Source of the DNA: Fidelibacterota bacterium | GTDB lineage: Bacteria > Fidelibacterota > UBA8477 > JABMPR01 | Length of the DNA: 64,000 nt | NCBI GenBank assembly: GCA_016845065.1 | Contig: JAERTG010000050.1 | Span: 129,948 to 193,947, forward strand | Direction: 5' to 3' | Shown: piece by piece, positions 1 to 63,869 of the stretch | Layout: each line of letters starts with the position of its first letter | Position numbering within the stretch: the first letter of the stretch is position 1 | Position numbers and translations under genes: made by a program | The notes under the pieces: generated by a model | Database searches by the model: none | Seen by the model: the letters and a program-made list of their open reading frames with translations, nothing else | What the model was told of the DNA's origin: nothing

Positions 1-708
1 AAGGGTCTGGCCTTCGTGAAAATAGATCAGTCCTCATTTAACGCGGGAGTGAGCAAATTTTTCCCTGAAGCATTACAGGCTGAAGTAATAAATGATCTAA
101 ATCTGGGTCACAATGATATCCTGTTTTTTGTATCTGATACTGAGGCAAAAACACTCCAGGCTCTGGGTGCCCTCCGCATTGAGTTAGCGAAGCGCGAAAA
201 CCTGATCCCGTCTGGAGTTATAAAACCACTTTTTGTCCTGGATTTCCCATTGTTGGATTGGGATGAAGATAGCAAGCGCTATATCGCCATGCATCATCCT
301 TTTACTTCTCCTAATCCAGAGGATCTCGAGTTAATGAATACGGCTCCCGGTGAAGTGAGGGCTCAGGCCTACGATTTGGTCATCAATGGTTATGAAGTAG
401 CTGGAGGCTCCATCAGGATTCATACGCGCGATATGCAAAGCCGGATGTTTGAACTCATTGGGATGGATGAAGAGGAAGCCCAGGCCAGATTTGGATTTCT
501 CCTAAAGGCCTTCAAATACGGTGCGCCGCCACATGGTGGAATTGCATTTGGATTTGATCGCCTGATCATGCTATTAGCTGGAACAGAGAATATCCGCGAC
601 GTAATCGCCTTTCCTAAGACAACCTCAGCATCCTCATTGATGGATGAAGCTCCCTCAAATGTAGATGCCCAGCAACTCAAGGAGCTTCATATCAATTTAG
701 TTGAGTGA
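1..708 (+). CDS. aspS: Aspartyl-tRNA synthetase, C-terminal part (5' end lies outside the window)
   Basis: The frame is open from nt 1. The class II aaRS motif-3 region reads GGSIRIHTRDMQ...GAPPHGGIAFGFDRLIMLLAGTENIRDVIAFPKT, typical of the AspRS C-terminus. Confidence 0.9.
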   Translation, partial: KGLAFVKIDQSSFNAGVSKFFPEALQAEVINDLNLGHNDILFFVSDTEAKTLQALGALRIELAKRENLIPSGVIKPLFVLDFPLLDWDEDSKRYIAMHHPFTSPNPEDLELMNTAPGEVRAQAYDLVINGYEVAGGSIRIHTRDMQSRMFELIGMDEEEAQARFGFLLKAFKYGAPPHGGIAFGFDRLIMLLAGTENIRDVIAFPKTTSASSLMDEAPSNVDAQQLKELHINLVE

Positions 709-850
709 TTCTAGGCTCAGAGTTATCATGAATCGTCTTATAAGAATGCTTGATTTTATCTAACATATCAGGTTGGTCTTGAATAGATTCATCAACAAGC
801 TGGAAATATTTACAACATTTTTAACTATTTGATGTTCAGGGGATAAATCC

Positions 851-3778
851 ATGAGACGACAATCCATATCGATCGTTCTACTATTTTCAATATTTGCCAT
901 GCCGCTTCTGGGAGAATACTGGCAGCAATATGTTGAGTATGATATGGATGTATATCTGGATTCAGGTCAAAAGACCCTTACCGCTGTCTCTCATCTCACC
1001 TATGTTAATCATTCCCCTGATACGCTTGATCGGATTCTCATGCATCTATATCCAAACGCTTTCAATGAGGGGACCATCGCAGATGAAGTGTGGGGAGAAT
1101 ACGGTCAATCATTCAATGAGGAGAAGGACTGGACAGGTATTCAAATTCAGAAGTTAGTAAGCGATTCACTTGATCTCGCCTTCCATATTCGGGATGATAC
1201 TATCCTTGATATTGCCCTTAACGAGGAACTTGGACCGGGCGATACACTCCTTTTTAGCATGGATTGGCTATTTATGGTACATCCCCTAATCGGTCGCGGT
1301 GGCTGGGAAGGAGAGCAGTTTGACTTCACTCAATGGTATCCAAAATTCGTTGTCTATGATGAGAATGGCTGGCACGATGATCCATTTGGAGATTGGGGTG
1401 AGTTCTATGGTGAATTTGGAAAGTACACCGTAAAGATTGACCTCCCTGAGGCTCAAATTGTGGCTGCAACGGGTGTTGTAATCGATGGTGATCCTGGCTG
1501 GAATTCTGTGCGGGTTGATACATCCCAACTATGGCAGGAATGGGTGGAAAAATTTAGCGAAGATCGCGAGGCTTATCTGGATGACTTGGACAGCACAAGC
1601 AGACGTCAAGTAAGTTTTCAGGCTGAGAATGTTCATGATTTTGCCTGGATTTGTTCGCCAGATTTTGTTTATGAGCACGGTCAGTGGAATGGGATTGATG
1701 TGCATGCCGTCTTTACGACAGAAGTTGGTGAATCGTGGACCAAAGATATGGTCAGATGGGGCGAAAGATCTTTGGAATGGTTATCAGGGAAATTCGGAAT
1801 GTTCACATGGCCACAGATGACCATGGCAAAATCCCTGGGAACGGGTGGAATGGAATACCCCATGATTATACTTGATTACACCGATAGTGAAGGATTAGCT
1901 GTTCATGAAGTCGGTCACAATTGGTTCTACGGTATTTTCGGAAATGACGAACTAGATGATCCCTGGCTTGACGAGGGCTTTACTACATTTCAGACTCGTT
2001 GGTATCTGGAACACTATTATCCTGAAAATGGATATGAACTTTCACGCGAATACATCACACAATTTGAATCTGATCATTTGCATCGAGAGATGTATGAAGA
2101 AGCTGAGCTGAAACCCGCGATTAGGTATATCCTATCGACTGCCAACGAACCCATGGCTACTTCCAGCGTGGATTATGCCTACTACGGATCCTACAGCAGT
2201 AATTCTTATGACAAGGGCTCAATTATGCTGGCCATGCTGAAGAATTATCTGGGAGAAGAACGATTCCTAGCCGGTATGCGACTCTATTTCTCGCGTTGGG
2301 CTCTAAAGCATGTGAATGAAGATCGATTTGTTAATGCCATGGAAGATGGTTGTGGGGAAGAATTGGATTGGTTTTTCGATCAATGGCTACGCACCACGAA
2401 CTATGTTGACTATGAACTGGTTGATTGGTCAGTGGAAGCACTTGATCAGGATCATTTCACAACAATAGTAAATGTCGATAATAAGGGCGGCATGTTTGTA
2501 CCTATCACAGTAACCGTTTTTAGCCAGGAGGGTGAGACCGTATCCGCTCCACTAGAGAATTTTCGGCATCGTACTTCAGGCACAATCGTGGTCGAATCTG
2601 ATTTTCGTCCGGTTAGGGTGTATCTCGATGCAGAGAATACTTTTTATGACCACGATCGGCGCAACAATGATAGTAAAAGAAAACGGGCTTTTCGCTATGA
2701 TTACAAGGGCTGGGATGCTTACCCCGGAGACAGGAATCTTTATCTCTGGAAACCGATTTTTGGATATAGTGATATGGCAGGACCAGGTGTAGGGATAAAT
2801 CTGAAAAAAGTATATAGAAATACAGGTAATTTTACGCAGTTCGGTCTGGACTATAATATTGAATCCGGTAACCCAGATGTCTCAATAAGTTTCAATGAAC
2901 TTCAAGTTGGTCTGCCCTTCAAGGGTACATGGTCTGGTAGTGCAAAAATTTGGCGTTCAATGGTTTTTGGCTCTCTGGCATATGAAATGAATTGGGCAAA
3001 AAAATACTGGAGAAATCCACTTCATTACCTTACAATAAAAATTGAAACCACAGATGCTAAACACGCCGACGTTTTCCCAGAAGATCAAATTGCCGTGACG
3101 AGCCTGGGTCTTCGATATGAATTACAGGATGAATTATTTTCCGGTGATTTTGGTTTTAGCAGTACATTTCAAACTTCTCCTGCGCAACTGGGAAGCTATG
3201 GCTTTGATTTTTCACAATTATTCCTCATGGGTAATTGGTCAAAATCCTTTGCCCATTTCCGTTTGAATAATCGCACAAACATGCTGGCTAATTCAAGTGC
3301 TACACCCGATCTGGTCAAAAGTAGAGTTGCCTCTCAGGATATAAGATCCAGCTATTTGGATAGAATTGCATCAAGTCTGCACGGGATTAAAGATGCTGAG
3401 ATGGTTGGTTCTCATTACTTTTTGCGAGGTGGTGGACGAATGCGCGGGTATGTTGACTCTCTGGATCAGCCGAAGAATTATATATGGTCAAACAATCTGG
3501 ATCTAACTTTTAACTCCATACCGTATATGCCTGAATCCATTGACTATGGGATGTTTTTTGATGTCGGTCAAATATCTAATGATGCTCAGAATTGGACTGG
3601 TGTAGGTGATCTGGGTGTTGGTTTCGATTACAAACCATCCTGGGATCGCACGAATTGGATTTCGACATTGTTTCGTCCCTTTCGCATGAAGTTTGAGCTG
3701 AGTATTTTAAGGTATGAAAATTCTGAATGGGTCAATGCGATAGATTCAAAACAATGGCTATTTACTATCTCTAATTAA
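851..3778 (+). CDS. Secreted M1-family zinc metallopeptidase (HEXXH-X18-E) fused to a C-terminal Omp85/BamA-like beta-barrel domain
   Basis: Signal peptide MRRQSISIVLLFSIFAMPLLG. Gluzincin motif HEVGHNWFYGIFGNDELDDPWLDEGFTTF. The C-terminal ~350 aa have an amphipathic beta-strand pattern, an Omp85 loop-6-like motif (GGGRMRGY), and a terminal ...PFRMKFELSI...KQWLFTISN pattern resembling D15 surface antigen barrels. Confidence 0.7.
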   Translation: MRRQSISIVLLFSIFAMPLLGEYWQQYVEYDMDVYLDSGQKTLTAVSHLTYVNHSPDTLDRILMHLYPNAFNEGTIADEVWGEYGQSFNEEKDWTGIQIQKLVSDSLDLAFHIRDDTILDIALNEELGPGDTLLFSMDWLFMVHPLIGRGGWEGEQFDFTQWYPKFVVYDENGWHDDPFGDWGEFYGEFGKYTVKIDLPEAQIVAATGVVIDGDPGWNSVRVDTSQLWQEWVEKFSEDREAYLDDLDSTSRRQVSFQAENVHDFAWICSPDFVYEHGQWNGIDVHAVFTTEVGESWTKDMVRWGERSLEWLSGKFGMFTWPQMTMAKSLGTGGMEYPMIILDYTDSEGLAVHEVGHNWFYGIFGNDELDDPWLDEGFTTFQTRWYLEHYYPENGYELSREYITQFESDHLHREMYEEAELKPAIRYILSTANEPMATSSVDYAYYGSYSSNSYDKGSIMLAMLKNYLGEERFLAGMRLYFSRWALKHVNEDRFVNAMEDGCGEELDWFFDQWLRTTNYVDYELVDWSVEALDQDHFTTIVNVDNKGGMFVPITVTVFSQEGETVSAPLENFRHRTSGTIVVESDFRPVRVYLDAENTFYDHDRRNNDSKRKRAFRYDYKGWDAYPGDRNLYLWKPIFGYSDMAGPGVGINLKKVYRNTGNFTQFGLDYNIESGNPDVSISFNELQVGLPFKGTWSGSAKIWRSMVFGSLAYEMNWAKKYWRNPLHYLTIKIETTDAKHADVFPEDQIAVTSLGLRYELQDELFSGDFGFSSTFQTSPAQLGSYGFDFSQLFLMGNWSKSFAHFRLNNRTNMLANSSATPDLVKSRVASQDIRSSYLDRIASSLHGIKDAEMVGSHYFLRGGGRMRGYVDSLDQPKNYIWSNNLDLTFNSIPYMPESIDYGMFFDVGQISNDAQNWTGVGDLGVGFDYKPSWDRTNWISTLFRPFRMKFELSILRYENSEWVNAIDSKQWLFTISN

Positions 3779-3797
3779 TGCTTGAATGGGATCATAA

Positions 3798-6047
3798 ATG
3801 ATAAAAAAAATGACATCTCTGTTTCTCCTCCTCCTGTCATTCCAGATGGGAATAGCACAGACAACCTATGATAAAATTAGAGTCTGGTCTGATAATACTG
3901 ATGAGATCATATCTGATTTATTGATTTTGGGAATAGACCCTGAAGGATTTGATGTCCGTAGAGAAGTTTATGTTGAGGCGATTGTAAGTCAGCACGAAAA
4001 GCTCGGGGTCGAAAGTCTGGGGTATGCAACAGAAGATTTAATTCTTGATCTGAGTTCTTATTACGCTTCTCGGTTGAGTCAAGGTGCGGTCAGAGAACTG
4101 GGGTATGGTAGCATGGGCGGCTATTTGACTTATGATGAGATTGTCTCAAGCATTGATTCGCTGCATGCGGAATACCCGGAAATCGTTTCTGACAAACTCA
4201 GTATTGGGCTTAGCTATGAAGGACGCAATATCTGGGCTTTTAAGATATCTGATGCTCAGGGCTTGCCTGATGGTGATCCACAGGTTCTATACAATTCCCT
4301 CACTCATGCTCGTGAACCAGCTGCCATGATGACCTTGATGCATTTCGCCTGGTCTCTTGCAGAAGGCTACAACCAGGATCCAAGTATGACATATTTAGTG
4401 AATGAGCGAGAGATTTGGTTTGTGCCAGTTATCAATCCAGATGGGTATGTCTATAATGAAATCAACGATCCAAATGGTGGTGGCATGCACCGCAAAAACC
4501 GACATCCAGGATGCACCAGTCTACCTGGTGTTGATCTGAATAGAAATTGGGGTTTCCAGTGGGGTTATGACGATGAAGGCTCTACTCCTGATCCCTGCGG
4601 AAACACATATCGCGGGAGCGAACCTTTCTCTGAACCCGAAACGCAGGCTATGCGAGATTTTGTACTTGCCCACGATTTTCAAACCATATTCAACTATCAT
4701 AGTTACGGCAATTTGTTGATTAAACCCTTTGGCTATAACGAAGCTATTGAATTGCCCACTCCAGACAATGAGATATACAGCCAAATGGGTCCAGATCTTG
4801 TGAAAGAGAATGACTATCTGTATGGGACTGGCACTGAAACAGTTGGCTATACGGTAAATGGGGATGCCGTTGATTATATGTATGGTGAACTAGGCATTAT
4901 CAATTTTACACCAGAAGTAGGCGCTGGTTCAGACGGTGCATTTTGGCCTCCTACTGAGCTCATTTTTGAAATGGCTGAAGACAATATTGATATGAATATT
5001 CATCTAGCTGGCTGTGCAGGAAGCTGGATAGAGGTACAACGCTTCGATTTTAATTCTGATGGTCCATTGGAGTCTGGAGACATTGTTGGCTGTGAACTAC
5101 GCGTTATGAATAAGGGTTTGGGGTCGGAGAATTCAGATGCCGCTCTGTATTTATATTCACCTGACAGTAGTATCACGCCATCCCACAGTTCCCTGGATGT
5201 CTCAGGACTGTCATCACAGGTATCGCATGATTTTGGAAGTGAAGGCTTAAGCTTTGAAATTCACTCGAGAACTGGCGAATTGGCTCAGCTTGTTTTGAGC
5301 ATAGAAATGTCTGGATATGAAATACAAGTGGATACACTCGAATGGATAGTTGGCATTCCTGACACCATATTTTTTGATGATTTTACCGACGGAACTCAAA
5401 TGTGGAGTTCTGAAACCTGGGGAGTCGAAATAGGAGCTGACGGTGAACAGTATATGACTGATTCTCCTTCTGGTGATTACGACCCAAGTACCATTTCAAC
5501 AACGATACTCGAAGTCCCCCTTGATATTCGTGGCTATAGCAATCCTATGCTAAGATTTGATGCCAGTTGGGATATTGAATTCAACTGGGATTTTTGTCAG
5601 GTTCTTGGATCGAATGACGGTGGCGCAAGCTGGGTGGCACTGAGTGGTCAGCATACTGATATTGGAAATGGGAGTTCCGTTCAACCCCTTGGAGAACCAG
5701 GATACCATGGCAGCCAAGCATGGATTGCTGAGGAGGTTTCTCTTGCAGTATTCAGCGAATCGCCATCTTTCTTGCTGGCTTTTGAATTGATAAGTGATAC
5801 CTACTATGAAGGTGATGGATTTAAAGTTGACAATGTTGCCGTGGTGGGCTGGGATGCTAGCCTAACCCTGGGTGATGTAACTCAGGACGGGCAAGTAAAT
5901 GTGTCAGATGCAGTCTTTCTATTGGAGTCAATAATCTCTGATCTGGAACTTGATGCGGATCTTAGGGAACAAGCGGATACCAATCAGGACAACATGATCG
6001 ATATCAGGGACCTGATTATTCTTATTGAGTGGATTCTTGAAGGTTAG
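3798..6047 (+). CDS. Secreted M14-family zinc carboxypeptidase with a MAM-like domain and a C-terminal type I dockerin-like domain
   Basis: Signal peptide present. M14 motifs: HAREPAA (HxxE), NRNW, HSYG, and a PEVG glutamate. The C-terminus has two Ca-binding dockerin repeats (GDVTQDGQVNVSDAVFLL and ADTNQDNMIDIRDLIILI). Confidence 0.8.
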   Translation: MIKKMTSLFLLLLSFQMGIAQTTYDKIRVWSDNTDEIISDLLILGIDPEGFDVRREVYVEAIVSQHEKLGVESLGYATEDLILDLSSYYASRLSQGAVRELGYGSMGGYLTYDEIVSSIDSLHAEYPEIVSDKLSIGLSYEGRNIWAFKISDAQGLPDGDPQVLYNSLTHAREPAAMMTLMHFAWSLAEGYNQDPSMTYLVNEREIWFVPVINPDGYVYNEINDPNGGGMHRKNRHPGCTSLPGVDLNRNWGFQWGYDDEGSTPDPCGNTYRGSEPFSEPETQAMRDFVLAHDFQTIFNYHSYGNLLIKPFGYNEAIELPTPDNEIYSQMGPDLVKENDYLYGTGTETVGYTVNGDAVDYMYGELGIINFTPEVGAGSDGAFWPPTELIFEMAEDNIDMNIHLAGCAGSWIEVQRFDFNSDGPLESGDIVGCELRVMNKGLGSENSDAALYLYSPDSSITPSHSSLDVSGLSSQVSHDFGSEGLSFEIHSRTGELAQLVLSIEMSGYEIQVDTLEWIVGIPDTIFFDDFTDGTQMWSSETWGVEIGADGEQYMTDSPSGDYDPSTISTTILEVPLDIRGYSNPMLRFDASWDIEFNWDFCQVLGSNDGGASWVALSGQHTDIGNGSSVQPLGEPGYHGSQAWIAEEVSLAVFSESPSFLLAFELISDTYYEGDGFKVDNVAVVGWDASLTLGDVTQDGQVNVSDAVFLLESIISDLELDADLREQADTNQDNMIDIRDLIILIEWILEG

Positions 6048-6139
6048 CTGCAGCACCAGCTGGTTCTGCCTCTTTTATCGTACGAAAATACAGAAACAAA
6101 TTTGATTTTGGCTTAAACAGCATTTGTAATAGTTGAGTC

Positions 6140-7054
6140 ATGCAGGCTATATTTGGCCGATTTTCAGGAGGGGGGGTTAACTCGAATGGGGAAGGCTCTG
6201 ACGCTTTGCGACATTTTGTTTTATTTTCCGCAATTCTAATCTCTTGTACTTCAACGGATATACCTGTCACACCCGATGCACCAGATCCAATACAAATCAA
6301 TATTGAAAGTGCAGATAGCCTCTGGTCGCTGAGGGCAGATATGGCAAGTGCCCAGGCAGCACTTACAATTTTTCAAAAGCTTGCAGAATCAGATTCATCA
6401 TCTATTGAGCTATGGGCTAAACTTTCCAGGGCTTATTACTTTTGTGGCCAATATTTGACCACCTCTCCACAGGTTCGTGATAGCCTGCTCTTAAAGGGTT
6501 ACGAAGCCAGTCAGTCAGTTCTCAAACAAAATAGCGAATATCGAAATCTGCTGTTCTCAACCGGGGATGAAAGCATGGCGGTTCGTGGACTTGACGAAAA
6601 TTCTCTCAATGCCCTGTATTGGGGTATGGCTAATTATGGACAATGGTTGGCCACTAAAAGCAATTTGATTCGCATGGGACAACGTGAGCTTATTTGGACA
6701 ACTCTGGAGCATATAAACGATTTGGACTCCACCTTTTACTATGGAGCATATTACAGGTATAAAGGTGCCCTGTTAGGGCGTGATCCCAAAACTGAAAATG
6801 ATACAACGGGTATCCGGGAGGCTTTTGATGAGGCTATAAGGGTTTCACCTGATTATCTAGGCAATTATACGCTGATGGCTCAACACTACTGTCCTCTGGC
6901 CCAGGATAAAAATCTGTTTTATAGCCTTTTAACAAAGGTAGTAACGACAACACTGAATCCAGACCTCCCATATTATCCTGAAAATGTCTATGAGAAAGCG
7001 CTGGCTGAAAGATTAATGATCAAAGCAGAAAAGGAAAACTGGTTTAATCTATGA
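6140..7054 (+). CDS. Hypothetical lipoprotein (helical, TPR-like?). The true start may be an internal TTG near 6204.
   Basis: Long ORF. Signal/lipobox-like segment LRHFVLFSAILISCTS. No recognisable catalytic motif. Confidence 0.5.
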   Translation: MQAIFGRFSGGGVNSNGEGSDALRHFVLFSAILISCTSTDIPVTPDAPDPIQINIESADSLWSLRADMASAQAALTIFQKLAESDSSSIELWAKLSRAYYFCGQYLTTSPQVRDSLLLKGYEASQSVLKQNSEYRNLLFSTGDESMAVRGLDENSLNALYWGMANYGQWLATKSNLIRMGQRELIWTTLEHINDLDSTFYYGAYYRYKGALLGRDPKTENDTTGIREAFDEAIRVSPDYLGNYTLMAQHYCPLAQDKNLFYSLLTKVVTTTLNPDLPYYPENVYEKALAERLMIKAEKENWFNL

Positions 7055-7227
7055 AATCATTTCGTGGGGAACGACAAAGTAAAAACGCCTCAGTTCAAGT
7101 CATTTTGACGGTGCTGGTGCTTTTGACATTTATGGTGCTGGTAAATTTTGTACCAACAGATGTCAAGGGAGGTAACTCCCAATCACAGAAGACCAGCTGG
7201 GAATCTTCTGTAGTAAAATTACCATAA
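7051..7227 (+). CDS. Small (58 aa) single-pass membrane protein, translationally coupled to the upstream gene by an ATGA overlap
   Basis: ATG at 7051 overlaps the TGA stop of the upstream ORF. One hydrophobic helix (VQVILTVLVLLTFMVLVNFV). It is below the ORF-track size cutoff. Confidence 0.3.
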   Translation: MKSFRGERQSKNASVQVILTVLVLLTFMVLVNFVPTDVKGGNSQSQKTSWESSVVKLP

Positions 7228-7243
7228 TTTTAGTTAGGTTAAA

Positions 7244-8158
7244 TTAAAACTGAAAAGGAGGCTGCTCCATTTTTGAGAGGGCTTCCCGAAGTTTATCCTC
7301 GTCCAGAGTGAAGACTTTTTCATTCAGCACACGTCGTGCAATCGATACATATTCATCTGATTTGAAATACTGCCTCAGTTGAGCCTGAATGGGTATTATT
7401 TGGCGTCGCGGTTCCCAAATCTGTGGTTTTCCCGTTTCAAGATGAATAATGCTCTCAGTGGCACTTGCCCAGGCGATCACCGCTAGACGATACTTTTTCC
7501 ACAAATCTTGGGCAACTTGCTGGACATGAGCCTGTACATATGGACTTAAAAAGACAAATCGCCTGCTGAAGATCAGACCAGTGTGGAAGTATTCAGGGAC
7601 ATTGATTATGCCATCAACTTGAAGATGGCGACCCATGAGCGTAAACAAAGCCAACAATTGATCTCCAAGACCGAGACCTGGATAGTTCTGTCCGGGAAGA
7701 GGACGTCTTCGATGTGAAAAATCAGCCTTGGGATTCTGAAGGAGGAGCCACTCAACCATCAAAACTTTTAACTGTTTGTTGTACTCATTTTCATCATCAA
7801 TATCGTTAGGAACCAGATGCTGGTATTTTGCCACAAAATCCATGACGATATGATCTTTGTCTCTATGACGCCCATTATAGATGGTTAATCGATGACGGTA
7901 GGGGTCACGCGTGTCGACTGCAACTGCCAGGTGTCTCAGGCCAAGATGACGAGCCTGACGATCCAGACCAAAGCGTTCCATGATAAATTTGATACCATCT
8001 TCGGAATATTTCCCAAGAAAGAGAGAGCTGGAATTCGAGCTTGATCTGTCAGTAAAAAAATTATCCCAACTCAGATCTTCTTGAGAAAAATTGCTGGTCA
8101 AATCCAGAGGAGATATTCGCCTCGCGATTTTTTTATATTTACGATCAAACTTGTTCAT
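7244..8158 (-). CDS. Hypothetical protein, last gene of the MMPL cluster (possible GNAT-like fold, weak)
   Basis: 304-aa ORF sitting 17 nt downstream of the outer-membrane barrel gene. The GLGLGDQLL segment resembles an acyl-CoA-binding motif. No confident family assignment. Confidence 0.45.
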   Translation of the reverse strand: MNKFDRKYKKIARRISPLDLTSNFSQEDLSWDNFFTDRSSSNSSSLFLGKYSEDGIKFIMERFGLDRQARHLGLRHLAVAVDTRDPYRHRLTIYNGRHRDKDHIVMDFVAKYQHLVPNDIDDENEYNKQLKVLMVEWLLLQNPKADFSHRRRPLPGQNYPGLGLGDQLLALFTLMGRHLQVDGIINVPEYFHTGLIFSRRFVFLSPYVQAHVQQVAQDLWKKYRLAVIAWASATESIIHLETGKPQIWEPRRQIIPIQAQLRQYFKSDEYVSIARRVLNEKVFTLDEDKLREALSKMEQPPFQF

Positions 8159-8174
8159 CTAGATGGATAATATC

Positions 8175-9536: not shown

Positions 9537-9545
9537 GGTCTGAAC

Positions 9546-10310: not shown

Positions 10311-10336
10311 TTCAAAATCCTTCTTTTGATTAGGTC

Positions 10337-13254: not shown

Positions 13255-13307
13255 ACGTTTCCAATCTATACAGAAATACAATCCATGCAAGACAGATTTT
13301 GATCAAA

Positions 13308-15581: not shown

Positions 15582-15729
15582 GGCCAGCAATGTATTGTGA
15601 CGCCCAGTCTGATGAAAGAAAAAGGAATATTTCAGCTTTTTTGAAGAAAATATTTTATGGGTTTAAAAAATGCTATGCACGCCTTATTTGAAGGATATAT
15701 TAAGCGTAACTAAGAAGTGAGACACGCTA

Positions 15730-20822: not shown

Positions 20823-20835
20823 ACACGAGGAATAA

Positions 20836-53793: not shown

Positions 53794-54039
53794 TTTTACA
53801 AACCCCTCAAATGTTGACTGATGAATTATTAATTGATCAATCAATTCTCTTCGGACCCAATTTTGTTGTGCGTATAAAGTGTTGTCCAAACACTGCCTTA
53901 CTCTCCTTGGGTTTTCTCAAAATTGTTGATAAGGTGTATGGAAATATTGTTGACAAGGGTAGGGGGGAACCATAAATTGAAGAAACGTAACTCAGGAAAG
54001 GGTTACTAAAATTAAAAGCATGGGGTTAAGTTGTTTCTG

Positions 54040-56943
54040 ATGACTAGATTTTTTCGCATTTTACTCCGTCTAATTACAGTAGCGTATCTTGTGAGTTCCT
54101 TTTCGATTGCTGGTACAACTGGTAAAATCTCTGGTACAGTAAGAGATGCAGAAAGTCTCGAAGGCCTCATTGGATGTAATGTTATCGTTGACAAAACACG
54201 GTTTGGAGCCTCTGTGGACCTTGATGGGAGTTTTTATATTATTGGCCTCGAACCTGGAGAGTATTCACTCACTGCTACCATGATTGGATATCAACAAGTT
54301 CGCCTATCTGAAGTACAGGTGCGTGCTGATCTAACAACCAATGTGGAGTTTGAACTACCATCAACTATTCTGATGTCAAGCGAAGTGGTTGAAGTTGTCG
54401 CGAAACGTGAAACTATCGTAAAGGATTTAACTGCCACCTCGGCTATCGTGTCATCTGAACAGATCGCCTCAATGCCAGTGACTGATATGGGGGATATCAT
54501 TAACCTCCAAGCTGGAATGGTTGATGGTCACATGCGGGGGGGACGCTCAGGTGAGGTTGCATATTGGATCGATGGCATCCCTGTTACTGATGTTTATGAT
54601 GGTGGTCAAATGTTTGAAGTATCCAAGGACTTAATCCAGGAGCTTCAGGTTATCTCAGGTGCTTTTAACGCTGAATATGGTCAGGCAATGTCAGGTATTG
54701 TCAATGTAACGACTAAAACCGGATACAAGGACTGGGGGGGTAATCTATCAGTCTACACAGGAGACTATCTGAGCCGTCATAATGAACTCTATATGGGTAT
54801 TGATGAGTTCAATCCCATTACCATCAAGAATCTCGACCTCTCCCTTCATGGCCCCATTATAAAAGACAAATTAGATATTAGCATTTCTCTCAGGGATGTT
54901 TATTGGCAAGGATGGCTCAATGGCCGGCACCAATTTAATCCTTGGGCTGTTCCGGTTATTGGATTCGATGGTTTAACCTCTCTGGGAGTCGATGCCCAAC
55001 TGGATTCACTCGTGACGAGTGTTTTTACAGAAATACCTGATCAGGGACCCATGAGTGATGATGAATACGCTGCTCTGAAAGACAGTCTCTTTGCGGATGG
55101 ATATGCAAAAGTTCATGGAAATCATTTGGATTCCATGGGTGATGGTGAATACAAACCCATGCAATGGAATCATCGTCAATTTTATCATGGACGTGTAAAC
55201 TGGTATCTATCCCCAGGATTAAGGTTGTCCTTTCAAGGCTCCTATACTGATGTTACCTATCAGGATTATGAGCGATCCTATCGATTAAATCCTTATGGCG
55301 ATTTGACCCGACAGACTCAAAGCTATAATTACCTTGCAAAATTGATGCACAGTTTGAACACGAACAGCTATTATTCTATTGGTCTTTCGAGGGCTACTAA
55401 AACATACTTCCATTATAACGCTGATGATTATGTTGTGTATGATGAAATGGGAGCCCCCATGCATTCGTACGCTTTTCCAACTTCCGGTACAAACAATGGG
55501 CGATTTAATAGAGTGAGTCTCACAGACCTCATCAAGATCGATTATGTGAATCAACTGACTTCTCATCACCAAATGAAAGCTGGAATTGAATACCGTCAAC
55601 ACTTGCTAACGCTTCAGGACAGTACCTTGCAGCCTCCTTCTGATAAAACCACTCTCAATCCAGTCTTTGATGATCCTCGCATTGCCGATCCTCGTATCCT
55701 TGATATTTCCACCATTTATAACAGTCAGTACGAACACCAACCCATTGAATTCTCAGCATACATTCAGGATAAAATCGAACTCAAGGAACTCATCATTAAT
55801 ATCGGTGTGCGTATGGATTACTTCAAACCAGATGGTCATGTCTTAGCTGATCCATCTGATCCTAGCATTTACGAACCACTTCGATTGAATAACATCTACC
55901 ATGATACTGATAGCGATGGTGTTTATGGTAATGAAAGTGATGCGCTTAAAACTGTGGCTGAGCGAAGTGAATATTGGTATGTGGCAGCCGAAGATAAAGT
56001 GCAGATTAGTCCAAGATTCGGAGCAAGTTTCCCAGTGACTGATAAGGGTGTGATTCATGTTTCCTATGGCCATTTCCTGCAGATTCCTCGGTTTGAACAT
56101 CTCTATCGCAACCCTGATTTTGATCTGGACAGTGGAACTGGGAACATTGGTGTCATAGGAAATGCAGACTTAAAGCCTGAAAAAACAATTTCAGGAGAAA
56201 TCGGAGTTACACAGGAAATTATGGACGGTGTGAGTCTTGATTTGACTGGCTACTTTAGAGATATCCGTAATTTGATTGGGACGAACTCTGAACAGATTGA
56301 AATTTTTGGTGGATCAGCCTTTTACAGCAAAATTGAAAACAGTGATTTTGCATATGTGAAGGGCATGGTGCTGGCATTGAACTATTACAATTCGAACGGA
56401 ATATCTGGCAACATTGATTACACCTTCCAGGTAGCTGAAGGAACTGCGTCTGATGCGGAAGAGGCCAGAAATTCCGTAACAGGTGGAGCTGAGCCAGGCA
56501 TCTATATTCGAGCTCTTAATTGGGATCAAAGGCACACTGTGAATCTGTCAGTAAACTATAATGCAGCATTTTGGGGTGTAAGTACCATCGGAGCCATGGG
56601 CAGCGGTCTACCCTATACACCGAATCTAGCTGCTGAAAATACACTTCTGACAAATAGCGCAACCAAGCCAATCACTCTTAATCTCGATTTGAACATTTAC
56701 TACAAATTCAAAGTGTTCAACAAAGAAAGTCAAGTATTCTTGAGAGTTCAAAATGTCCTGGATCATTTGAATCAATCGGGTGTCTATGATAAGACAGGAG
56801 TGGCAGATTTTACTCCAGATGAGCAACAAGTTAGAAACCTCAATGTAGATGAGTCCGTGAATACTGTTGAAGAGTGGTTCCGCAACGAAACTTTCTACTC
56901 TGAACCGCGACGCATTGAATTGGGATTGGGGCTTAATTTCTGA
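54040..56943 (+). CDS. TonB-dependent outer-membrane receptor (SusC-like, CarbopepD_reg N-domain)
   Basis: Signal peptide. The N-domain GKISGTVRDAESLEGLIGCNVIVDKTRFGASVDLDGSFYI. Plug and barrel. Ends ...LGLGLNF. Its stop overlaps the next gene's ATG (TGATG). Confidence 0.85.
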   Translation: MTRFFRILLRLITVAYLVSSFSIAGTTGKISGTVRDAESLEGLIGCNVIVDKTRFGASVDLDGSFYIIGLEPGEYSLTATMIGYQQVRLSEVQVRADLTTNVEFELPSTILMSSEVVEVVAKRETIVKDLTATSAIVSSEQIASMPVTDMGDIINLQAGMVDGHMRGGRSGEVAYWIDGIPVTDVYDGGQMFEVSKDLIQELQVISGAFNAEYGQAMSGIVNVTTKTGYKDWGGNLSVYTGDYLSRHNELYMGIDEFNPITIKNLDLSLHGPIIKDKLDISISLRDVYWQGWLNGRHQFNPWAVPVIGFDGLTSLGVDAQLDSLVTSVFTEIPDQGPMSDDEYAALKDSLFADGYAKVHGNHLDSMGDGEYKPMQWNHRQFYHGRVNWYLSPGLRLSFQGSYTDVTYQDYERSYRLNPYGDLTRQTQSYNYLAKLMHSLNTNSYYSIGLSRATKTYFHYNADDYVVYDEMGAPMHSYAFPTSGTNNGRFNRVSLTDLIKIDYVNQLTSHHQMKAGIEYRQHLLTLQDSTLQPPSDKTTLNPVFDDPRIADPRILDISTIYNSQYEHQPIEFSAYIQDKIELKELIINIGVRMDYFKPDGHVLADPSDPSIYEPLRLNNIYHDTDSDGVYGNESDALKTVAERSEYWYVAAEDKVQISPRFGASFPVTDKGVIHVSYGHFLQIPRFEHLYRNPDFDLDSGTGNIGVIGNADLKPEKTISGEIGVTQEIMDGVSLDLTGYFRDIRNLIGTNSEQIEIFGGSAFYSKIENSDFAYVKGMVLALNYYNSNGISGNIDYTFQVAEGTASDAEEARNSVTGGAEPGIYIRALNWDQRHTVNLSVNYNAAFWGVSTIGAMGSGLPYTPNLAAENTLLTNSATKPITLNLDLNIYYKFKVFNKESQVFLRVQNVLDHLNQSGVYDKTGVADFTPDEQQVRNLNVDESVNTVEEWFRNETFYSEPRRIELGLGLNF

Positions 56944-61856: not shown

Positions 61857-63869
61857 ATGCGCTTTATAGCTACACTAACCCTTTCACTGATGATGATAGT
61901 TTCTCTTTCAGCTGATGTGAATGTAACCTTCCGTGCAAATACAGCATTTGTACCGGATACCCTTAACGCAATGAGCTCCGTTCAAATGCGCGGTGCTCTA
62001 CCAACCCTGACATGGGACAACACATCCCCTGTTATCTTCACCAACGTGGGTGGAGATTACTGGGAAGCTACCATGACTGTTCCAGATGCAACGGTTGGAG
62101 AATACAAATTCTTTACTAATTCGCTTCCAGGTCCCATTGACGCTGCTTGGGGTGGCTGGGAAGGTGATCCAAACAGGACCTTAGATCTTTCAGGTTTCTC
62201 AGGATCTGATACCACACTGCCCTTGCAGTATGTGAATGGTTATGAAAATGGTGCCTCACAATTCGATCCACCTTATGAAACCAATGACTCAACCATTGTT
62301 GTACACATTCGTGTAAATATGCAGGGTTGGGAAGATTTCAATGATGAAACCATGTGGGTAGGTGCCCGCGGAGGATTCGGTGACCTGGATTGGGGCTCAA
62401 CCATGTGGCTCACCCAGGAATCACCTCATGTAAATGGTGGTAGCCAACAGTACAATGCGGATAACTTCTATTCTGCTAATGTCCGCGTTCCGCTGGCTGA
62501 TGCAACGGGTAGCAATGGTTTCAAGTTTGTGGTCCACGCTGCCGGTTCTGAACCAACACAGGACTGGGGTGATATGCTTTACAACCCTAATGGAGACATC
62601 CCTGCTAGCTATTCTGGTGCGGATACCACCCTCTATTGGAGCTGGTTCGCTGGTCTTGAACCTGCTGGTTTTACAGGTACAGATACTACCCCTCTGACCT
62701 TCAAGGCTGATTTTTCAACAACAATTGCTGAAAATGGATACGCAATCGGTGACTCTGTCATCGTGCGTTATGGCTATTTTGGGTCTGCTGGTGAAGTAAG
62801 CGAAGCTGGACTTACAAAAGAAGGTTTATTTGGCAATGAATATTCCGTTAGAATTCCTGAAGTAACTGTGAATTTTGGTGAGAAACTATATTACCAGTAT
62901 TATAAACTGGATGAAAGCCTAGCTGAATATCGGGAGATCTACTTCAATTTTGACTACGCAGGTGATACACCTTCAGAGGCGGAGCGTCGTGAAGTCATTG
63001 TCACTGCAGCTGATACCACGATCATGGATGTGGTCGTTAGTACCGTAGATTCACGCCGTCAGCCACTCTTCCGCAACACCAACGCTGTTGGTCAGCATGT
63101 AACCGTGTCTTACACCGTCGATATGCGTCCAGCTTACTGGCACGTTGACGCGGGTGTAACTTTAGAAGATATACAGGGAAATCTTGATATCTCTAGAGCC
63201 GGACAAATTGACAGCCTGGGCGTGTTTATGAATGGTCCAGCCACTGGTGGTTGGTCTGGTTGGGGTTTGGATCTTGCTTCACTTGAAGAAAAACAACTCT
63301 TTGATGACGGAACTCATGGTGATGTCACAGCCGATGATGATGTCTATACCCTTCAGTTTGAATACGCACCAGATAGCTCCAACAATGTTATCGGACAGGA
63401 ATTCAAGTTCGGTATTGGTGGTGGCGACAATGAAAGCAATTACGGTCTGAATCACGTTGAGAATATCAATGATGCCAATGATACGTATACAATTGCTTCT
63501 GCTTGGGGTAGTATTAACCCGAATTTTTATTCACTATGGGACTTTGACAACATGATTGGTCTGGTCGGTGTGGATGAATTTGTTGCTCCTAATGCCCTTA
63601 GTCTGTCACAGAACTACCCCAACCCATTCAACCCAACAACAAACATCAGCTATATCTTGCCACAAGCTGGCCATGTTGAATTGGTAATTTATAATGCTCT
63701 TGGTCAGGAAGTACGGACCTTGAAAGCTGGATACAGCAATGCTGGAAGCTATTCTGTTAATTGGAATGGTCTTGATCATGCTGGTAACAGCGTTGCCAGT
63801 GGTCTGTATATTTATACTTTGACCACCGGTGATCAAAGCATTAGCAAGAAAATGCTCATGCTGAAATAA
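61857..63869 (+). CDS. Secreted multi-module carbohydrate-binding protein (CBM20/25-like starch-binding modules) with T9SS C-terminal sorting domain
   Basis: Signal peptide. Repeated beta-sandwich modules with W...GxW...EYKF-type motifs. Canonical T9SS type-A CTD LSQNYPNPFNPTT...YSVNWNG...ASGLYIYTL. Confidence 0.7.
   Translation: MRFIATLTLSLMMIVSLSADVNVTFRANTAFVPDTLNAMSSVQMRGALPTLTWDNTSPVIFTNVGGDYWEATMTVPDATVGEYKFFTNSLPGPIDAAWGGWEGDPNRTLDLSGFSGSDTTLPLQYVNGYENGASQFDPPYETNDSTIVVHIRVNMQGWEDFNDETMWVGARGGFGDLDWGSTMWLTQESPHVNGGSQQYNADNFYSANVRVPLADATGSNGFKFVVHAAGSEPTQDWGDMLYNPNGDIPASYSGADTTLYWSWFAGLEPAGFTGTDTTPLTFKADFSTTIAENGYAIGDSVIVRYGYFGSAGEVSEAGLTKEGLFGNEYSVRIPEVTVNFGEKLYYQYYKLDESLAEYREIYFNFDYAGDTPSEAERREVIVTAADTTIMDVVVSTVDSRRQPLFRNTNAVGQHVTVSYTVDMRPAYWHVDAGVTLEDIQGNLDISRAGQIDSLGVFMNGPATGGWSGWGLDLASLEEKQLFDDGTHGDVTADDDVYTLQFEYAPDSSNNVIGQEFKFGIGGGDNESNYGLNHVENINDANDTYTIASAWGSINPNFYSLWDFDNMIGLVGVDEFVAPNALSLSQNYPNPFNPTTNISYILPQAGHVELVIYNALGQEVRTLKAGYSNAGSYSVNWNGLDHAGNSVASGLYIYTLTTGDQSISKKMLMLK

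What the first reader, a model, noticed from the sequence alone, without database searches (positions are those of the whole stretch)
851..3778. M1 zinc aminopeptidase fused to an Omp85-like C-terminal beta-barrel: candidate type Vd-like self-exporting protease
The N-terminal ~590 aa carry a full gluzincin M1 active site (HEVGH-X18-E). The C-terminal ~350 aa look like an Omp85/D15 16-strand barrel: alternating amphipathic strands, a loop-6-like GGGRMRGY motif, and a terminal PFRMKFELSI...WLFTISN strand pattern. The known passenger-plus-Omp85-barrel architecture is PlpD-type (type Vd) secretion of a patatin lipase. An M1 peptidase passenger on such a barrel would be an unusual surface-displayed or self-exporting protease. 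It sits next to another secreted peptidase (M14-dockerin), which suggests an extracellular peptide-scavenging pair.
Basis: inference. Interest (0 to 1): 0.65.

Follow-up and report, generated by a model that had tools for sequence, protein, structure and literature searches.

The report
M1 aminopeptidase fused to Omp85 barrel
This gene encodes a zinc aminopeptidase joined in one chain to a BamA/TamA-type outer-membrane barrel; the family is widespread and unstudied in Marinimicrobia and related phyla, and the enzyme most likely faces the periplasm rather than being exported to the cell surface.

Summary
ORF 851..3778 (+, 975 aa) has four parts:
- a Sec-type signal peptide;
- an M1 aminopeptidase with every catalytic residue intact (domains I-III, no ERAP-like domain IV);
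- a 22-residue linker;
- a 16-strand C-terminal barrel of the Omp85 superfamily.

The barrel assignment rests on these results:
- a confident AlphaFold model (pLDDT 90.8);
- 50 of 50 top Foldseek PDB hits being TamA, BamA or Sam50;
- both Omp85 "lid-lock" motifs at the correct structural positions, (L/M)RG(Y/F) in loop 6 and FxDxG on strand 13;
- an hhalign match to E. coli TamA with those motifs in register.

Pfam and NCBIfam miss the barrel in this protein.

The "type Vd-like self-exporting protease" reading is not supported. There is no POTRA domain. The barrel is the closed BamA/TamA type. The type Vd prototype PlpD has itself been shown to keep its enzyme domain in the periplasm. Unfused relatives look periplasmic. 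About 22 related Marinimicrobia loci place the gene beside DsbD and a thioredoxin-like protein, often with DegP downstream.

The family has about 720 clusters at 50% identity across FCB-group phyla. It is absent from the 2014 Omp85 census. The nearest precedent is that census's "WD40-like" class. I rate it a new variant of a known kind. Its function is untested.

The parts
851..913 (+). Signal peptide (about residues 1-21, MRRQSISIVLLFSIFAMPLLG). Sec/SPI type with no lipobox Cys.
   Evidence: Read from the sequence. The model shows a helix at 2-20 with low pLDDT at 17-20. The conserved mature start YWQQ (Y23, Q25, Q26) follows in 54 homologs. The cleavage site is inferred.
914..1690 (+). M1 domain I (N-terminal beta domain, about residues 22-280, with an inserted helix at 228-244).
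   Evidence: Secondary structure of the AF2 model. Foldseek aligns about 620-650 columns of the model to ERAP1/2, IRAP and tricorn factor F3. The boundary is approximate.
1691..2395 (+). M1 catalytic (thermolysin-like) domain II, about residues 281-515. It carries GGMEY 332-336 (nt 1844-1858), HEVGH 352-356 (nt 1904-1918), E375 (nt 1973-1975) and the catalytic Tyr Y453 (nt 2207-2209).
   Evidence: Pfam PF01433 matches residues 345-512, E = 4.5e-22. All listed residues are invariant in 54/54 sequences.
2396..2668 (+). M1 domain III (beta sandwich, about residues 516-606), ending in the conserved D-x-D-R-R-N-N motif (600-606). This is the fusion boundary.
   Evidence: All-beta secondary structure at 521-592. 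Stand-alone M1 homologs of 586-663 aa end a few residues after the same NN motif.
2669..2734 (+). Linker, residues 607-628, with a short strand at 612-616 that stays docked when the C-domain is modelled alone. There is no POTRA domain.
   Evidence: the strand appears as E23-27 in the C-domain-only model, pLDDT about 84. No POTRA family hit at E <= 1.
2735..3775 (+). 16-strand Omp85-superfamily beta barrel (residues 629-975). Strand 16 is kinked (959-962 plus 969-974).
   Evidence: AF2 full-length model pLDDT 90.8 and C-domain model pLDDT 85.6. The top 50 Foldseek PDB hits are all TamA, BamA or Sam50, E = 1e-8 to 2e-5. hhalign against E. coli TamA gives E = 3.6e-5. Two of 30 family members hit PF01103, best E = 1e-6.
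3293..3478 (+). Loop 6 (residues 815-876) between strands 11 and 12. It carries the lid-lock motif MRGY 864-867 (nt 3440-3451).
   Evidence: One search gives the loop position. One search gives conservation: R865 in 53/54, G866 as 42 G and 11 A, position 867 as 40 Y, 9 F and 4 W. The motif is defined in PMC4490367.
3554..3616 (+). Barrel-wall half of the lid lock: F902-x-D904-x-G906 on strand 13 (nt 3554-3568) and D920-x-G922 on strand 14 (nt 3608-3616).
   Evidence: F902 in 53/54, D904 in 53/54, G906 in 51/54, D920 in 53/54, G922 in 54/54. These lie on strands 897-909 and 916-927. They align to TamA FVDSG and GTGVG.
3798..6047 (+). Downstream gene, probably co-transcribed (19-nt gap): a secreted M14 carboxypeptidase with an InhA-like MAM domain and a type I dockerin.
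   Evidence: Pfam E = 1.5e-63, 9.3e-12 and 6.4e-07. The adjacency is kept in 12 related loci down to about 43-47% identity. No terminator-like site lies in the gap.

Best explanation
The gene encodes a single-chain fusion of a Sec signal peptide, an active M1 zinc aminopeptidase (domains I-III, without the helical domain IV of ERAP or PepN), a 22-residue linker, and a POTRA-less 16-strand Omp85-superfamily barrel with an intact BamA/TamA-type lid lock.

Proposed mechanism, with the basis of each step. The precursor crosses the inner membrane through Sec (inferred from the signal peptide). [quoted passage not shown] Strand 1 of an Omp85 barrel starts at the periplasmic face and the lumen is closed by loop 6. 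The M1 module therefore stays in the periplasm, tethered under the outer membrane (inferred, not shown). There it removes N-terminal residues from oligopeptides. These would be imported nutrient peptides and/or fragments released by envelope proteases such as DegP. In the window's clade it would work alongside the co-transcribed M14 carboxypeptidase.

The barrel is best read as an Omp85 scaffold reused as a membrane anchor, as now proposed for PlpD.

Confidence by step: about 0.95 that the architecture is M1 plus an Omp85 barrel; about 0.65 that the enzyme faces the periplasm; about 0.4 for the specific physiological role.
For: Architecture: searches give the ORF, Pfam M1, confident AF2 models, Foldseek hits to TamA/BamA/Sam50 for the C-domain and to ERAP/IRAP/F3 for the N-terminal part, invariant catalytic and lid-lock residues, and an hhalign match to TamA with the motifs in register.

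No POTRA.

Topology:
(a) The long loop carrying RGY lies between strands 11 and 12, which fixes the Omp85 strand register and puts the N-terminus of strand 1 on the periplasmic side.
(b) The lid lock is the FxDxG type, which is linked to the narrow closed barrels of BamA and TamA rather than the wider GxDxG barrel of FhaC.
(c) The PlpD enzyme domain was shown experimentally to be periplasmic, and the authors argue that a folded domain cannot pass a folded Omp85 barrel.
(d) Stand-alone homologs of the M1 module (586-663 aa) in Thermonema rossianum, a Flavobacteriales MAG and Gemmatimonadota have an SPI-type signal, no lipobox and no T9SS C-terminal domain. They end at the fusion point. This is what a soluble periplasmic enzyme looks like.
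(e) In about 22 Marinimicrobia loci the gene follows DsbD and/or a TlpA-like redoxin, usually with a PPIase further upstream. A DegP/HtrA gene follows immediately in 8 of them and within about 5 kb in 4 more.

Family reality and spread.
Against: No experiment exists for any member. I could not read the model coordinates, so the side of the barrel on which AF2 places the M1 module was not measured. The 22-residue linker is long enough in principle to cross a barrel lumen.

Gene neighbourhood is only suggestive. The window's own clade has lost the DsbD/DegP context and sits beside a dockerin-bearing M14 enzyme, which could be extracellular. The lid-lock motifs and a kinked strand 16 are conserved as strictly as in working Omp85 machines, so the barrel may do more than anchor.

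The window protein itself gets no PF01103 hit. The Foldseek TM-scores are moderate (0.43-0.54).
Confidence: 0.6

Rival explanations
1. One reading: a type Vd-like autotransporter. The Omp85 barrel translocates the N-terminal M1 domain to the cell surface, where it stays displayed or is released as an extracellular peptide-scavenging protease working with the secreted M14-dockerin enzyme.
For: The order of parts, N-terminal enzyme then C-terminal Omp85 barrel, is the same as in PlpD. In the window's clade the gene is probably co-transcribed with a signal-peptide M14 carboxypeptidase carrying a dockerin, a module typical of extracellular assemblies. The same window encodes TonB-dependent receptors that could take up peptides.
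Against: There is no POTRA domain. The barrel has a closed BamA/TamA-type FxDxG lid lock. The type Vd prototype does not secrete its enzyme domain, and translocating a folded domain through a folded Omp85 barrel is considered energetically implausible. The M1 module is about 67 kDa and binds zinc. The M14 adjacency is limited to one clade, while the majority context is periplasmic proteostasis genes. Unfused homologs carry no surface-export signal.
Confidence: 0.12
2. The barrel is a working Omp85 machine and not just an anchor. In this model the M1 module replaces the POTRA domains as the periplasmic substrate-handling unit. The protein would then be an envelope quality-control device that engages stalled or misfolded outer-membrane-protein precursors or lipoproteins at the barrel seam and trims them. 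This would be comparable to E. coli BamA acting with the BAM-associated zinc protease BepA. Alternatively it could be a gated peptide conduit feeding the active site directly.
For: The lid-lock motifs are conserved in 51-54 of 54 sequences, and G922 on strand 14 is invariant. Strand 16 is short and kinked as in BamA. A short strand (612-616) docks on the barrel domain, and Pro635 is invariant in the middle of strand 1. Clade-B genes sit beside PPIase, DsbD, a TlpA-like redoxin and DegP, all envelope folding or quality-control factors. The 2014 census also suggested a periplasmic quality-control role for its enzyme-fused Omp85 class.
Against: M1 enzymes are exopeptidases acting on free N-termini, which suits peptide clean-up better than degrading folded or stalled proteins. 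PlpD keeps a normal Omp85 barrel without any known transport role. Conserved lid-lock residues may simply be needed for barrel stability. There is no direct evidence for this model.
Confidence: 0.18
3. The fusion is a gene-calling or assembly artefact: two adjacent genes, an M1 peptidase and a stand-alone noNterm-type Omp85, joined by a frameshift or a missed stop.
For: Stand-alone M1 proteins ending exactly at the junction do exist in other phyla.
Against: The single ORF of about 975 aa recurs in thousands of independently assembled genomes and metagenomes across several phyla. The short barrel-only hit that was looked up clusters with a full-length protein. There is no stop or frame change at the junction.
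Confidence: 0.01

Closest known systems
PlpD / FplA (patatin-like Omp85 proteins, formerly 'type Vd secretion')
   Same: One chain with a signal peptide, an N-terminal hydrolase and a C-terminal 16-strand Omp85 barrel. The barrel resembles BamA/TamA rather than TpsB. The likely logic is an enzyme held at the periplasmic face of the outer membrane (PMC11116518).
   Different: The enzyme here is an M1 zinc aminopeptidase, not a patatin phospholipase. There is no POTRA domain between enzyme and barrel. Dimerisation and a strand-swapping lid are unknown here. The substrate would be peptides rather than lipids.
'WD40-like' Omp85 subfamily of Heinz & Lithgow 2014 (PMC4104836)
   Same: An Omp85 barrel without POTRA, found largely in FCB-group bacteria. 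Supplementary Table S3 lists Phyre2 hits at 98.7-99.6% to templates 1Z5H, 4KXD, 3QNF and 4FGM. By my own recollection of those PDB entries they are M1 aminopeptidases. It also lists collagenase templates (4AR1, 4AR9). These hits sit upstream of the barrel.
   Different: Those proteins also carry a TolB-like PD40 propeller. The window family has no PD40 hit, and its N-terminal ~620 residues align to ERAP/IRAP/F3-type M1 enzymes. None of the census entries has PF01433, and the peptidase module is never mentioned in the main text. I could not fetch a member to test direct homology.
'Metallo' (PF00149 metallophosphoesterase) and 'noNterm' Omp85 subfamilies
   Same: POTRA-less Omp85 barrels, with or without an N-terminal enzyme domain, common in Bacteroidota and relatives. 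Leptospira noNterm proteins use the same (L/M)RG(W/Y) variant of the loop-6 motif.
   Different: The N-terminal domain is different or absent. Their barrels are recognised by PF01103, whereas this family's barrel mostly is not.
E. coli TamA / BamA barrels
   Same: 16 strands, loop 6 between strands 11 and 12, the RG(Y/F) and FxDxG lid lock, a conserved Gly on strand 14 and a kinked last strand. Best Foldseek hit is TamA 4C00, E = 1.1e-8. hhalign against TamA gives E = 3.6e-5.
   Different: There are no POTRA domains and no known partner such as TamB or BamB-E. Sequence identity is only 8-14%, and the hhalign match to BamA is not significant on its own (E = 0.032).
AaaA of Pseudomonas aeruginosa (type Va autotransporter with an aminopeptidase passenger, PMC3426542)
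   Same: An aminopeptidase covalently joined to an outer-membrane barrel (title and abstract).
   Different: As I recall, AaaA is an M28 enzyme on a 12-strand classical autotransporter barrel and is surface-exposed. Here the barrel has 16 strands and is Omp85-type, which is a different fold and a different assembly logic.
Short secreted M1 peptidases of Bacteroidota and Gemmatimonadota (586-663 aa)
   Same: The same M1 sub-type: a YWQQ-like mature N-terminus, a GG(M/T)E(Y/F)PM motif, domains I-III only, and an ending at the NN motif.
   Different: They lack the barrel and are presumably soluble.

Membership tests
Peptidase family M1 (gluzincin aminopeptidases) | HEXXH-X18-E zinc-binding motif | tested here: met
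   H352-E-V-G-H356 and E375 are invariant in 54/54 sequences.
Peptidase family M1 (gluzincin aminopeptidases) | GXMEN exopeptidase motif that binds the substrate's free N-terminus | tested here: inconclusive
   The motif is present as GGMEY (332-336) and is invariant. The Glu is kept but the final Asn is Tyr in the whole family. The effect on specificity is unknown.
Peptidase family M1 (gluzincin aminopeptidases) | Catalytic Tyr that stabilises the transition state (Y-x-K-G region) | tested here: met
   Y453 is in 54/54 sequences, and position 455 is K in 52 and R in 2. The assignment is by motif position, not by structural superposition.
Peptidase family M1 (gluzincin aminopeptidases) | Pfam PF01433 above its gathering score, and the M1 fold | tested here: met
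   79.2 bits against a cut-off of 27.7. Foldseek to ERAP1/2, IRAP and F3 gives E about 1e-24 to 1e-21 over about 620-650 columns.
Peptidase family M1 (gluzincin aminopeptidases) | C-terminal helical domain IV (ERAP/PepN type) | tested here: not met
   After domain III (to about residue 606) the chain goes into the barrel. There is no helical domain. This domain is not universal in M1.
Omp85 superfamily | C-terminal 16-stranded transmembrane beta barrel | tested here: met
   16 strands between 629 and 974 in two independent AF2 runs. The top 50 Foldseek PDB hits are all Omp85 proteins. These are predictions, not solved structures.
Omp85 superfamily | (V/I)RG(Y/F) signature at the tip of loop L6 (between strands 11 and 12) | tested here: met
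   (L/M)RG(Y/F) at 864-867 inside the 815-876 loop, with R865 in 53/54 sequences. The definition is from PMC4490367. The L/M variant is also seen in F. johnsoniae BamA and Leptospira Omp85s.
Omp85 superfamily | (F/G)xDxG signature on strand 13, plus a conserved Gly on strand 14 | tested here: met
   F902, D904 and G906 (53, 53 and 51 of 54) lie on strand 897-909. G922 (54/54) lies on strand 916-927. They align to TamA FVDSG and GTGVG. The Arg-Asp contact itself could not be measured because no coordinates were available.
Omp85 superfamily | [quoted passage not shown] | tested here: not met
   No POTRA family hit at E <= 1. There is no beta-alpha-alpha-beta-beta unit between residues 517 and 628. 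POTRA-less subfamilies (noNterm, Metallo, WD40-like) are accepted members of the superfamily, so this does not exclude membership.
Omp85 superfamily | Match to Pfam PF01103 (Omp85 / bacterial surface antigen) | tested here: not met
   The window protein has no hit at E <= 1. Only 2 of 30 family members reach it, best E = 1e-6. P0120 is annotated PF01103 (weak). Homology is instead supported by hhalign to TamA, E = 3.6e-5.
Type Vd secretion (PlpD-like) | Patatin-like passenger domain | tested here: not met
   The N-terminal domain is M1. There is no PF01734 hit.
Type Vd secretion (PlpD-like) | Single POTRA domain between passenger and barrel | tested here: not met
   as above.
Type Vd secretion (PlpD-like) | Translocation of the N-terminal domain across the outer membrane | not testable with these tools
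   This needs protease-accessibility experiments. For PlpD itself the feature has been contradicted (PMC11116518).
Type Va classical autotransporter | 12-strand barrel with an alpha-helical linker in the lumen | tested here: not met
   There are 16 strands. The linker holds only a 4-residue helix. No autotransporter hit appears in Pfam or among the top Foldseek hits.
'WD40-like' Omp85 subfamily (Heinz & Lithgow 2014) | N-terminal TolB-like PD40 / WD40 beta propeller | tested here: not met
   There is no PF07676 hit in the window protein or in 10 divergent members. The N-terminal ~620-650 residues align to ERAP/IRAP/F3-type M1 enzymes.
'WD40-like' Omp85 subfamily (Heinz & Lithgow 2014) | Direct homology of the barrel and peptidase-like module to that cluster | not tested

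The most novel reading that the evidence does not exclude
The M1-Omp85 protein is not a passively anchored enzyme. It would be a previously unrecognised envelope machine of FCB-group bacteria in which an Omp85 barrel, with its lid lock and a BamA-like seam, captures polypeptides at the outer membrane. These could be stalled outer-membrane-protein precursors or peptides in transit. The barrel would hand them to a covalently attached zinc aminopeptidase. That would make it a one-chain functional analogue of BamA acting with a quality-control protease such as BepA or DegP.
Probability: 0.15. Interest if true: 0.8.

Novelty: new variant of a known kind. Interest (0 to 1): 0.5.

Why it matters
Omp85 proteins are the universal machines that build outer membranes. 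The 2024 PlpD study proposed that evolution also reused the Omp85 scaffold for other jobs. This family would be a second, large and phylogenetically broad example of an enzyme fused to an Omp85 barrel, with about 720 clusters at 50% identity across Marinimicrobia, KSB1, Zixibacteria, Latescibacteria, Krumholzibacteria, Calditrichota, Kryptonia and some Gemmatimonadota. It differs from PlpD in carrying a different enzyme and no POTRA domain.

Current annotation calls these proteins only 'M1 family metallopeptidase'. Their membrane location is therefore overlooked when peptide and protein degradation by abundant ocean bacteria such as Marinimicrobia (SAR406) is reconstructed from genomes.

Knowing whether the enzyme faces in or out decides whether it counts as an extracellular enzyme in models of marine organic-matter turnover. 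If the barrel turns out to be functional, the family would be a new kind of envelope quality-control or peptide-handling device.

Tried and rejected
- Pfam and NCBIfam scans of the C-terminal 375 aa gave no usable hit. Pfam found nothing and NCBIfam's only match was noise (LldD, E = 0.19).
- An HMM profile of the barrel searched against all PDB sequences gave only a spurious Sul2 match, E = 1.1. Sequence-to-profile methods therefore cannot see the Omp85 link. It needed structure prediction, motif mapping and hhalign.
- Model coordinates are not exposed. The position of the M1 module relative to the barrel faces, the R865-D904 contact and the pairing partner of strand 612-616 could not be measured.
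- The promoter and terminator scan of 600..7300 gave fewer sites than the shuffled controls and is uninformative. The organism may also use non-sigma-70-type promoters.
- The tRNA scan of the window found none.
- Literature searches for an M1-Omp85 fusion, for Marinimicrobia aminopeptidases at the outer membrane, and for follow-up on WD40-like Omp85 proteins found nothing specific. The library is limited to open-access papers, so this is not proof of absence.
- The idea that the ~400-aa barrel-only hits are stand-alone noNterm relatives was dropped. The one looked up (P0256) clusters with a 1020-aa protein.
- A second copy of the gene in the window was considered. The only other ORF of about 970 aa (54031..56943) is a TonB-dependent receptor.
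- An assembly or gene-fusion artefact was rejected because the ORF recurs in many independent assemblies.


Full report
**1. What is there**

An uninterrupted ORF runs from 851 to 3778 on the + strand and encodes 975 aa. Upstream lies the 3' end of an aspartyl-tRNA synthetase gene (16..708). This is named from the homologous loci, where the corresponding gene carries tRNA-synt_2 and GAD domains.

Nineteen nucleotides downstream starts a 749-aa protein with Peptidase_M14 (E = 1.5e-63), an InhA-like MAM domain and a type I dockerin.

**2. The N-terminal part is an active-looking M1 aminopeptidase**

- Pfam Peptidase_M1 matches residues 345-512 at 79.2 bits against a cut-off of 27.7.
- An AlphaFold2 model built on a 54-sequence alignment is confident: mean pLDDT 90.8, pTM 0.87.
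- Foldseek aligns about 620-650 columns of the model to ERAP1/2, IRAP, puromycin-sensitive aminopeptidase and tricorn factor F3, with E about 1e-24 to 1e-21.
- H352, E353, H356, E375, Y453 and the whole GGMEYPM motif are invariant in 54/54 homologs.

The classical GXMEN motif is GGMEY in this family. The Glu that binds the substrate's amino group is retained and the Asn is replaced by Tyr.

The enzyme has domains I-III only. After the beta sandwich at 516-606 there is no helical ERAP/PepN-type domain IV.

The first about 21 residues look like a Sec/SPI signal peptide with no lipobox Cys (sequence). The conserved mature start YWQQ follows.

**3. The C-terminal part is an Omp85-superfamily barrel**

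Direct family searches fail. The 375 C-terminal residues get no usable Pfam or NCBIfam hit; NCBIfam's only match is noise at E = 0.19. An HMM of the domain finds no Omp85 protein among PDB sequences.

Four other lines of evidence agree.

(a) Two AF2 runs, one full-length and one of residues 590-975 alone (pLDDT 85.6), give 16 long strands between 629 and 974. The single very long loop (815-876, with three short helices) lies between strands 11 and 12. The last strand is short and kinked.

(b) Foldseek of the C-domain model against the PDB returns only Omp85 proteins in the top 50: E. coli and P. aeruginosa TamA, BamA from several species, and mitochondrial Sam50. E ranges from 1.1e-8 to 2.4e-5 and probability is 1.00. 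TM-scores are moderate at 0.43-0.54.

(c) The two motifs that define the Omp85 'lid lock' are (V/I)RG(Y/F) at the tip of L6 and (F/G)xDxG on strand 13, plus a conserved Gly on strand 14 (PMC4490367). They sit at exactly those structural positions:
- (L/M)RG(Y/F) at 864-867, with R865 in 53/54 sequences;
- F902-x-D904-x-G906, in 53, 53 and 51 of 54;
- G922 in 54/54.

The L/M variant of the first motif also occurs in F. johnsoniae BamA (LRGY) and in Leptospira Omp85 proteins.

(d) hhalign of the barrel alignment against E. coli TamA gives E = 3.6e-5. It aligns GGGRMRGY with GGDRSIRGY, FFDVG with FVDSG and DLGVG with GTGVG. The match to BamA is weak (E = 0.032) but in the same register.

In addition, two of the 30 family members scanned reach PF01103 on their own, best E = 1e-6. 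One distant member (P0120) is already named 'BamA/TamA family outer membrane protein' by NCBI.

I regard the Omp85 assignment as secure, at about 0.95, with the caveat that it rests on predicted structures.

**4. What is missing: POTRA**

Residues 517-600 are the all-beta M1 domain III. Only 22 residues (607-628) connect it to strand 1. They contain a 4-residue helix and a 5-residue strand. No POTRA model matches at E <= 1.

POTRA-less Omp85 subfamilies are accepted in the literature (noNterm, Metallo, WD40-like). Their existence means this does not exclude superfamily membership. It does separate the protein from PlpD-type ('type Vd') proteins, which have one POTRA domain.

**5. The family**

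The protein belongs to a large, length-conserved family.
- The word-indexed search gave 5747 hits. Full-length matches of about 975 aa run from 81% down to about 33% identity. Most are labelled Marinimicrobia, Neomarinimicrobiota, Fidelibacterota or FCB group.
- An exhaustive profile search with the barrel alone found 720 representative clusters (50% identity level) at E <= 1e-3 and 384 at E <= 1e-10.
- Essentially all complete proteins are 940-1090 aa with the barrel at the C-terminus.
- The shorter barrel-only hits look like fragments: the one looked up, a 404-aa hit, clusters with a 1020-aa protein.
- Eight of ten divergent or odd-length members scanned still carry PF01433, including four of the five longest. 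They come from Zixibacteria, KSB1 and Gemmatimonadales MAGs.

A scan of species-representative genomes, followed by ORF extension and an HMM of the barrel, gave two forms.
- **Long form**, with LRG[YF] and FxDxG: found in Neomarinimicrobiota, KSB1, Latescibacteria, Krumholzibacteria, Calditrichaceae, Kryptonia and some Gemmatimonadota.
- **Short form**, 586-663 aa and M1 only: found in Thermonema rossianum DSM 10300, a Flavobacteriales MAG and many Gemmatimonadota. It ends a few residues after the conserved NN motif, which corresponds to residue 606 here.

The gene is therefore a true domain fusion with a sharp boundary at about 606.

**6. Which side of the membrane?**

The evidence favours the periplasm.

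(i) The position of L6 fixes the Omp85 strand register. The N-terminus of strand 1, and so the M1 module, emerges on the periplasmic side unless the linker threads the lumen.

(ii) The strand-13 motif is FxDxG in 53/54 sequences. That is the form tied to the narrow, closed barrels of BamA and TamA. TpsB translocases, which let a helix pass, use GxDxG and a wider barrel.

(iii) The prototype of the 'passenger plus Omp85 barrel' class has been re-examined. The PlpD patatin domain is exclusively periplasmic. The authors argue that passing a folded domain through a folded Omp85 barrel is structurally and energetically unfavourable (PMC11116518).

(iv) The unfused short forms have an SPI-type signal, no lipobox and no type IX secretion C-terminal domain. 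By what is known of Bacteroidota export signals, that is how a soluble periplasmic protein looks. The window's own genome does use T9SS tails on other proteins (61857..63869), but neither peptidase gene has one.

(v) Gene context within Marinimicrobia falls into two exclusive classes.
- **Window clade** (12 loci plus the window, down to about 43-47% identity): AspS, then the gene, then M14-MAM-dockerin, usually followed by a TAtT-like TPR protein (11 of the 12 loci).
- **Other class** (about 22 loci): DsbD and/or a TlpA-like redoxin immediately upstream of the gene, usually with a cyclophilin-type PPIase further upstream. A DegP/HtrA protease follows immediately in 8 of them and within about 5 kb in 4 more.

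No MAG among the best 80 loci shows both classes, so these are probably orthologs whose neighbourhood changed. DsbD, TlpA-like redoxins and DegP all act in the periplasm.

Outside Marinimicrobia neither context is kept, so the neighbourhood evidence is supportive only.

Against the periplasmic model:
- I could not read the model coordinates.
- A 22-residue linker could in principle cross a barrel.
- The window clade's partner carries a dockerin, a module usually found on extracellular proteins.

**7. Most likely mechanism**

- Shown: the architecture, intact catalytic and lid-lock residues, the breadth of the family, the fusion boundary and the contexts.
- Inferred: Sec export; BAM-dependent insertion of the barrel; the M1 module retained under the outer membrane; N-terminal trimming of periplasmic oligopeptides (imported peptides and/or products of envelope proteases); and, in this clade, cooperation with the M14 carboxypeptidase, which would attack the same peptides from the other end.
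- The absence of domain IV, which caps the active site in ERAP/PepN-type enzymes, suggests an open active site that may accept longer peptides. This is speculative.

**8. Rivals**

- A working Omp85 barrel that hands polypeptides to the peptidase, as envelope quality control or a peptide conduit: about 0.18. It is favoured by the strict conservation of the lid lock, the kinked strand 16, the invariant Pro635 in strand 1, the docked strand 612-616 and the proteostasis neighbourhood. It is weakened by the exopeptidase nature of M1 enzymes and by the PlpD precedent of a non-transporting barrel.
- An assembly artefact is excluded by recurrence.

**9. Comparison with what is known**

The closest characterised analogue is PlpD/FplA: an enzyme joined to an Omp85 barrel, with the enzyme periplasmic. 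It differs in its enzyme and in having a POTRA domain.

The 2014 census of the superfamily lists ten subfamilies, including three without POTRA: Metallo (PF00149), noNterm and WD40-like.
- None of its entries carries PF01433.
- The words peptidase and aminopeptidase do not occur in its main text.
- Its Table S3 does record, for nearly every 'WD40-like' member, a Phyre2 'best aminopeptidase hit' at about 99% to 1Z5H, 4KXD, 3QNF or 4FGM, or to collagenase templates 4AR1 and 4AR9. This sits beside a TolB-like propeller and a BamA/TamA barrel. By my own recollection of those PDB entries, the first four are M1 enzymes.

A gluzincin-like module next to an Omp85 barrel has therefore been seen before, but it was neither discussed nor followed up.

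The window family differs in having no propeller. It also has a complete Pfam-recognisable M1 enzyme, and a barrel that PF01103 mostly misses. Whether it is a propeller-less sister of that class could not be tested here.

**10. Verdict**

Novelty is a new variant of a known kind, that is, an enzyme-fused, POTRA-less Omp85 protein. The family is large, unannotated as a membrane protein and experimentally untouched.

Interest is moderate, at 0.5. A specialist would find the breadth of the family and the parallel with the revised PlpD story noteworthy, but the concept has precedents and the function is still inferred.

Noticed in passing
window 3798-6047 (+): M14 carboxypeptidase with an InhA-like MAM domain and a C-terminal type I dockerin, 19 nt downstream of the M1-barrel gene. 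The pairing is conserved in 12 related loci. No cohesin partner was looked for, so where the dockerin attaches is unknown.
   Followed up: partly
window 7244-15590 (-): A conserved minus-strand cluster. It holds a 304-aa protein with no significant family hit, a 453-aa protein with a sub-threshold outer-membrane-barrel match, and a 254-aa ORF (9546-10310) whose counterpart in homologous loci is TP_0789-like/DUF1329 (LolA-like). Two MMPL/RND-type transporters follow (10337-12637 and 13308-15590), with a small unannotated 218-aa ORF between them. The first two genes are syntenic in all clade-A relatives. The cluster looks like an envelope lipid or lipoprotein export module.
   Followed up: partly
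window 54031-63869 (+): A TonB-dependent receptor with a CarboxypepD_reg domain (970 aa) is followed, with a 1-nt overlap, by a 1290-aa ORF with no Pfam hit. After a 336-aa ORF that was not examined comes a 670-aa protein with FlgD-Ig and a T9SS C-terminal sorting domain. The organism therefore has type IX secretion, yet neither peptidase at 851-6047 carries a T9SS tail.
   Followed up: no
L004 2478-3392 (+), upstream of the clade-B homolog: A stand-alone 304-aa patatin-family gene sits inside the PPIase-DsbD-redoxin cluster just upstream of the M1-barrel gene in this Marinimicrobia contig. This is curious because the other enzyme known to be fused to an Omp85 barrel (PlpD) is a patatin. It may be coincidence.
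   Followed up: no
window 2684-2698 (residues 612-616) and 2753-2755 (Pro635): A short strand just before the barrel stays docked to the barrel domain even when the M1 part is left out of the prediction. A Pro in the middle of barrel strand 1 is invariant in 54/54 homologs. Neither feature is explained. Both lie near the strand 1 / strand 16 seam, which is the working edge of BamA.
   Followed up: no
PMC4104836, supplementary Table S3: The 'WD40-like' Omp85 subfamily of the 2014 census has a column of about 99%-confidence Phyre2 hits to M1 aminopeptidase or collagenase templates that the paper's main text never mentions. That class probably also contains a gluzincin-like peptidase module.
   Followed up: partly
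window 18753-22482 (+): A GH57 alpha-amylase/4-alpha-glucanotransferase is followed by a glycogen-phosphorylase-like gene, forming a small alpha-glucan metabolism pair. Elsewhere in the window are a 712-aa M23 peptidase (41753-43891, -) and a heavy-metal P-type ATPase (45800-48022, -).
   Followed up: no
window 1-64000: No tRNA or tmRNA genes were found in the whole 64-kb window. GC content is even at 41-48%, with no sign of a foreign island around the gene.
   Followed up: yes
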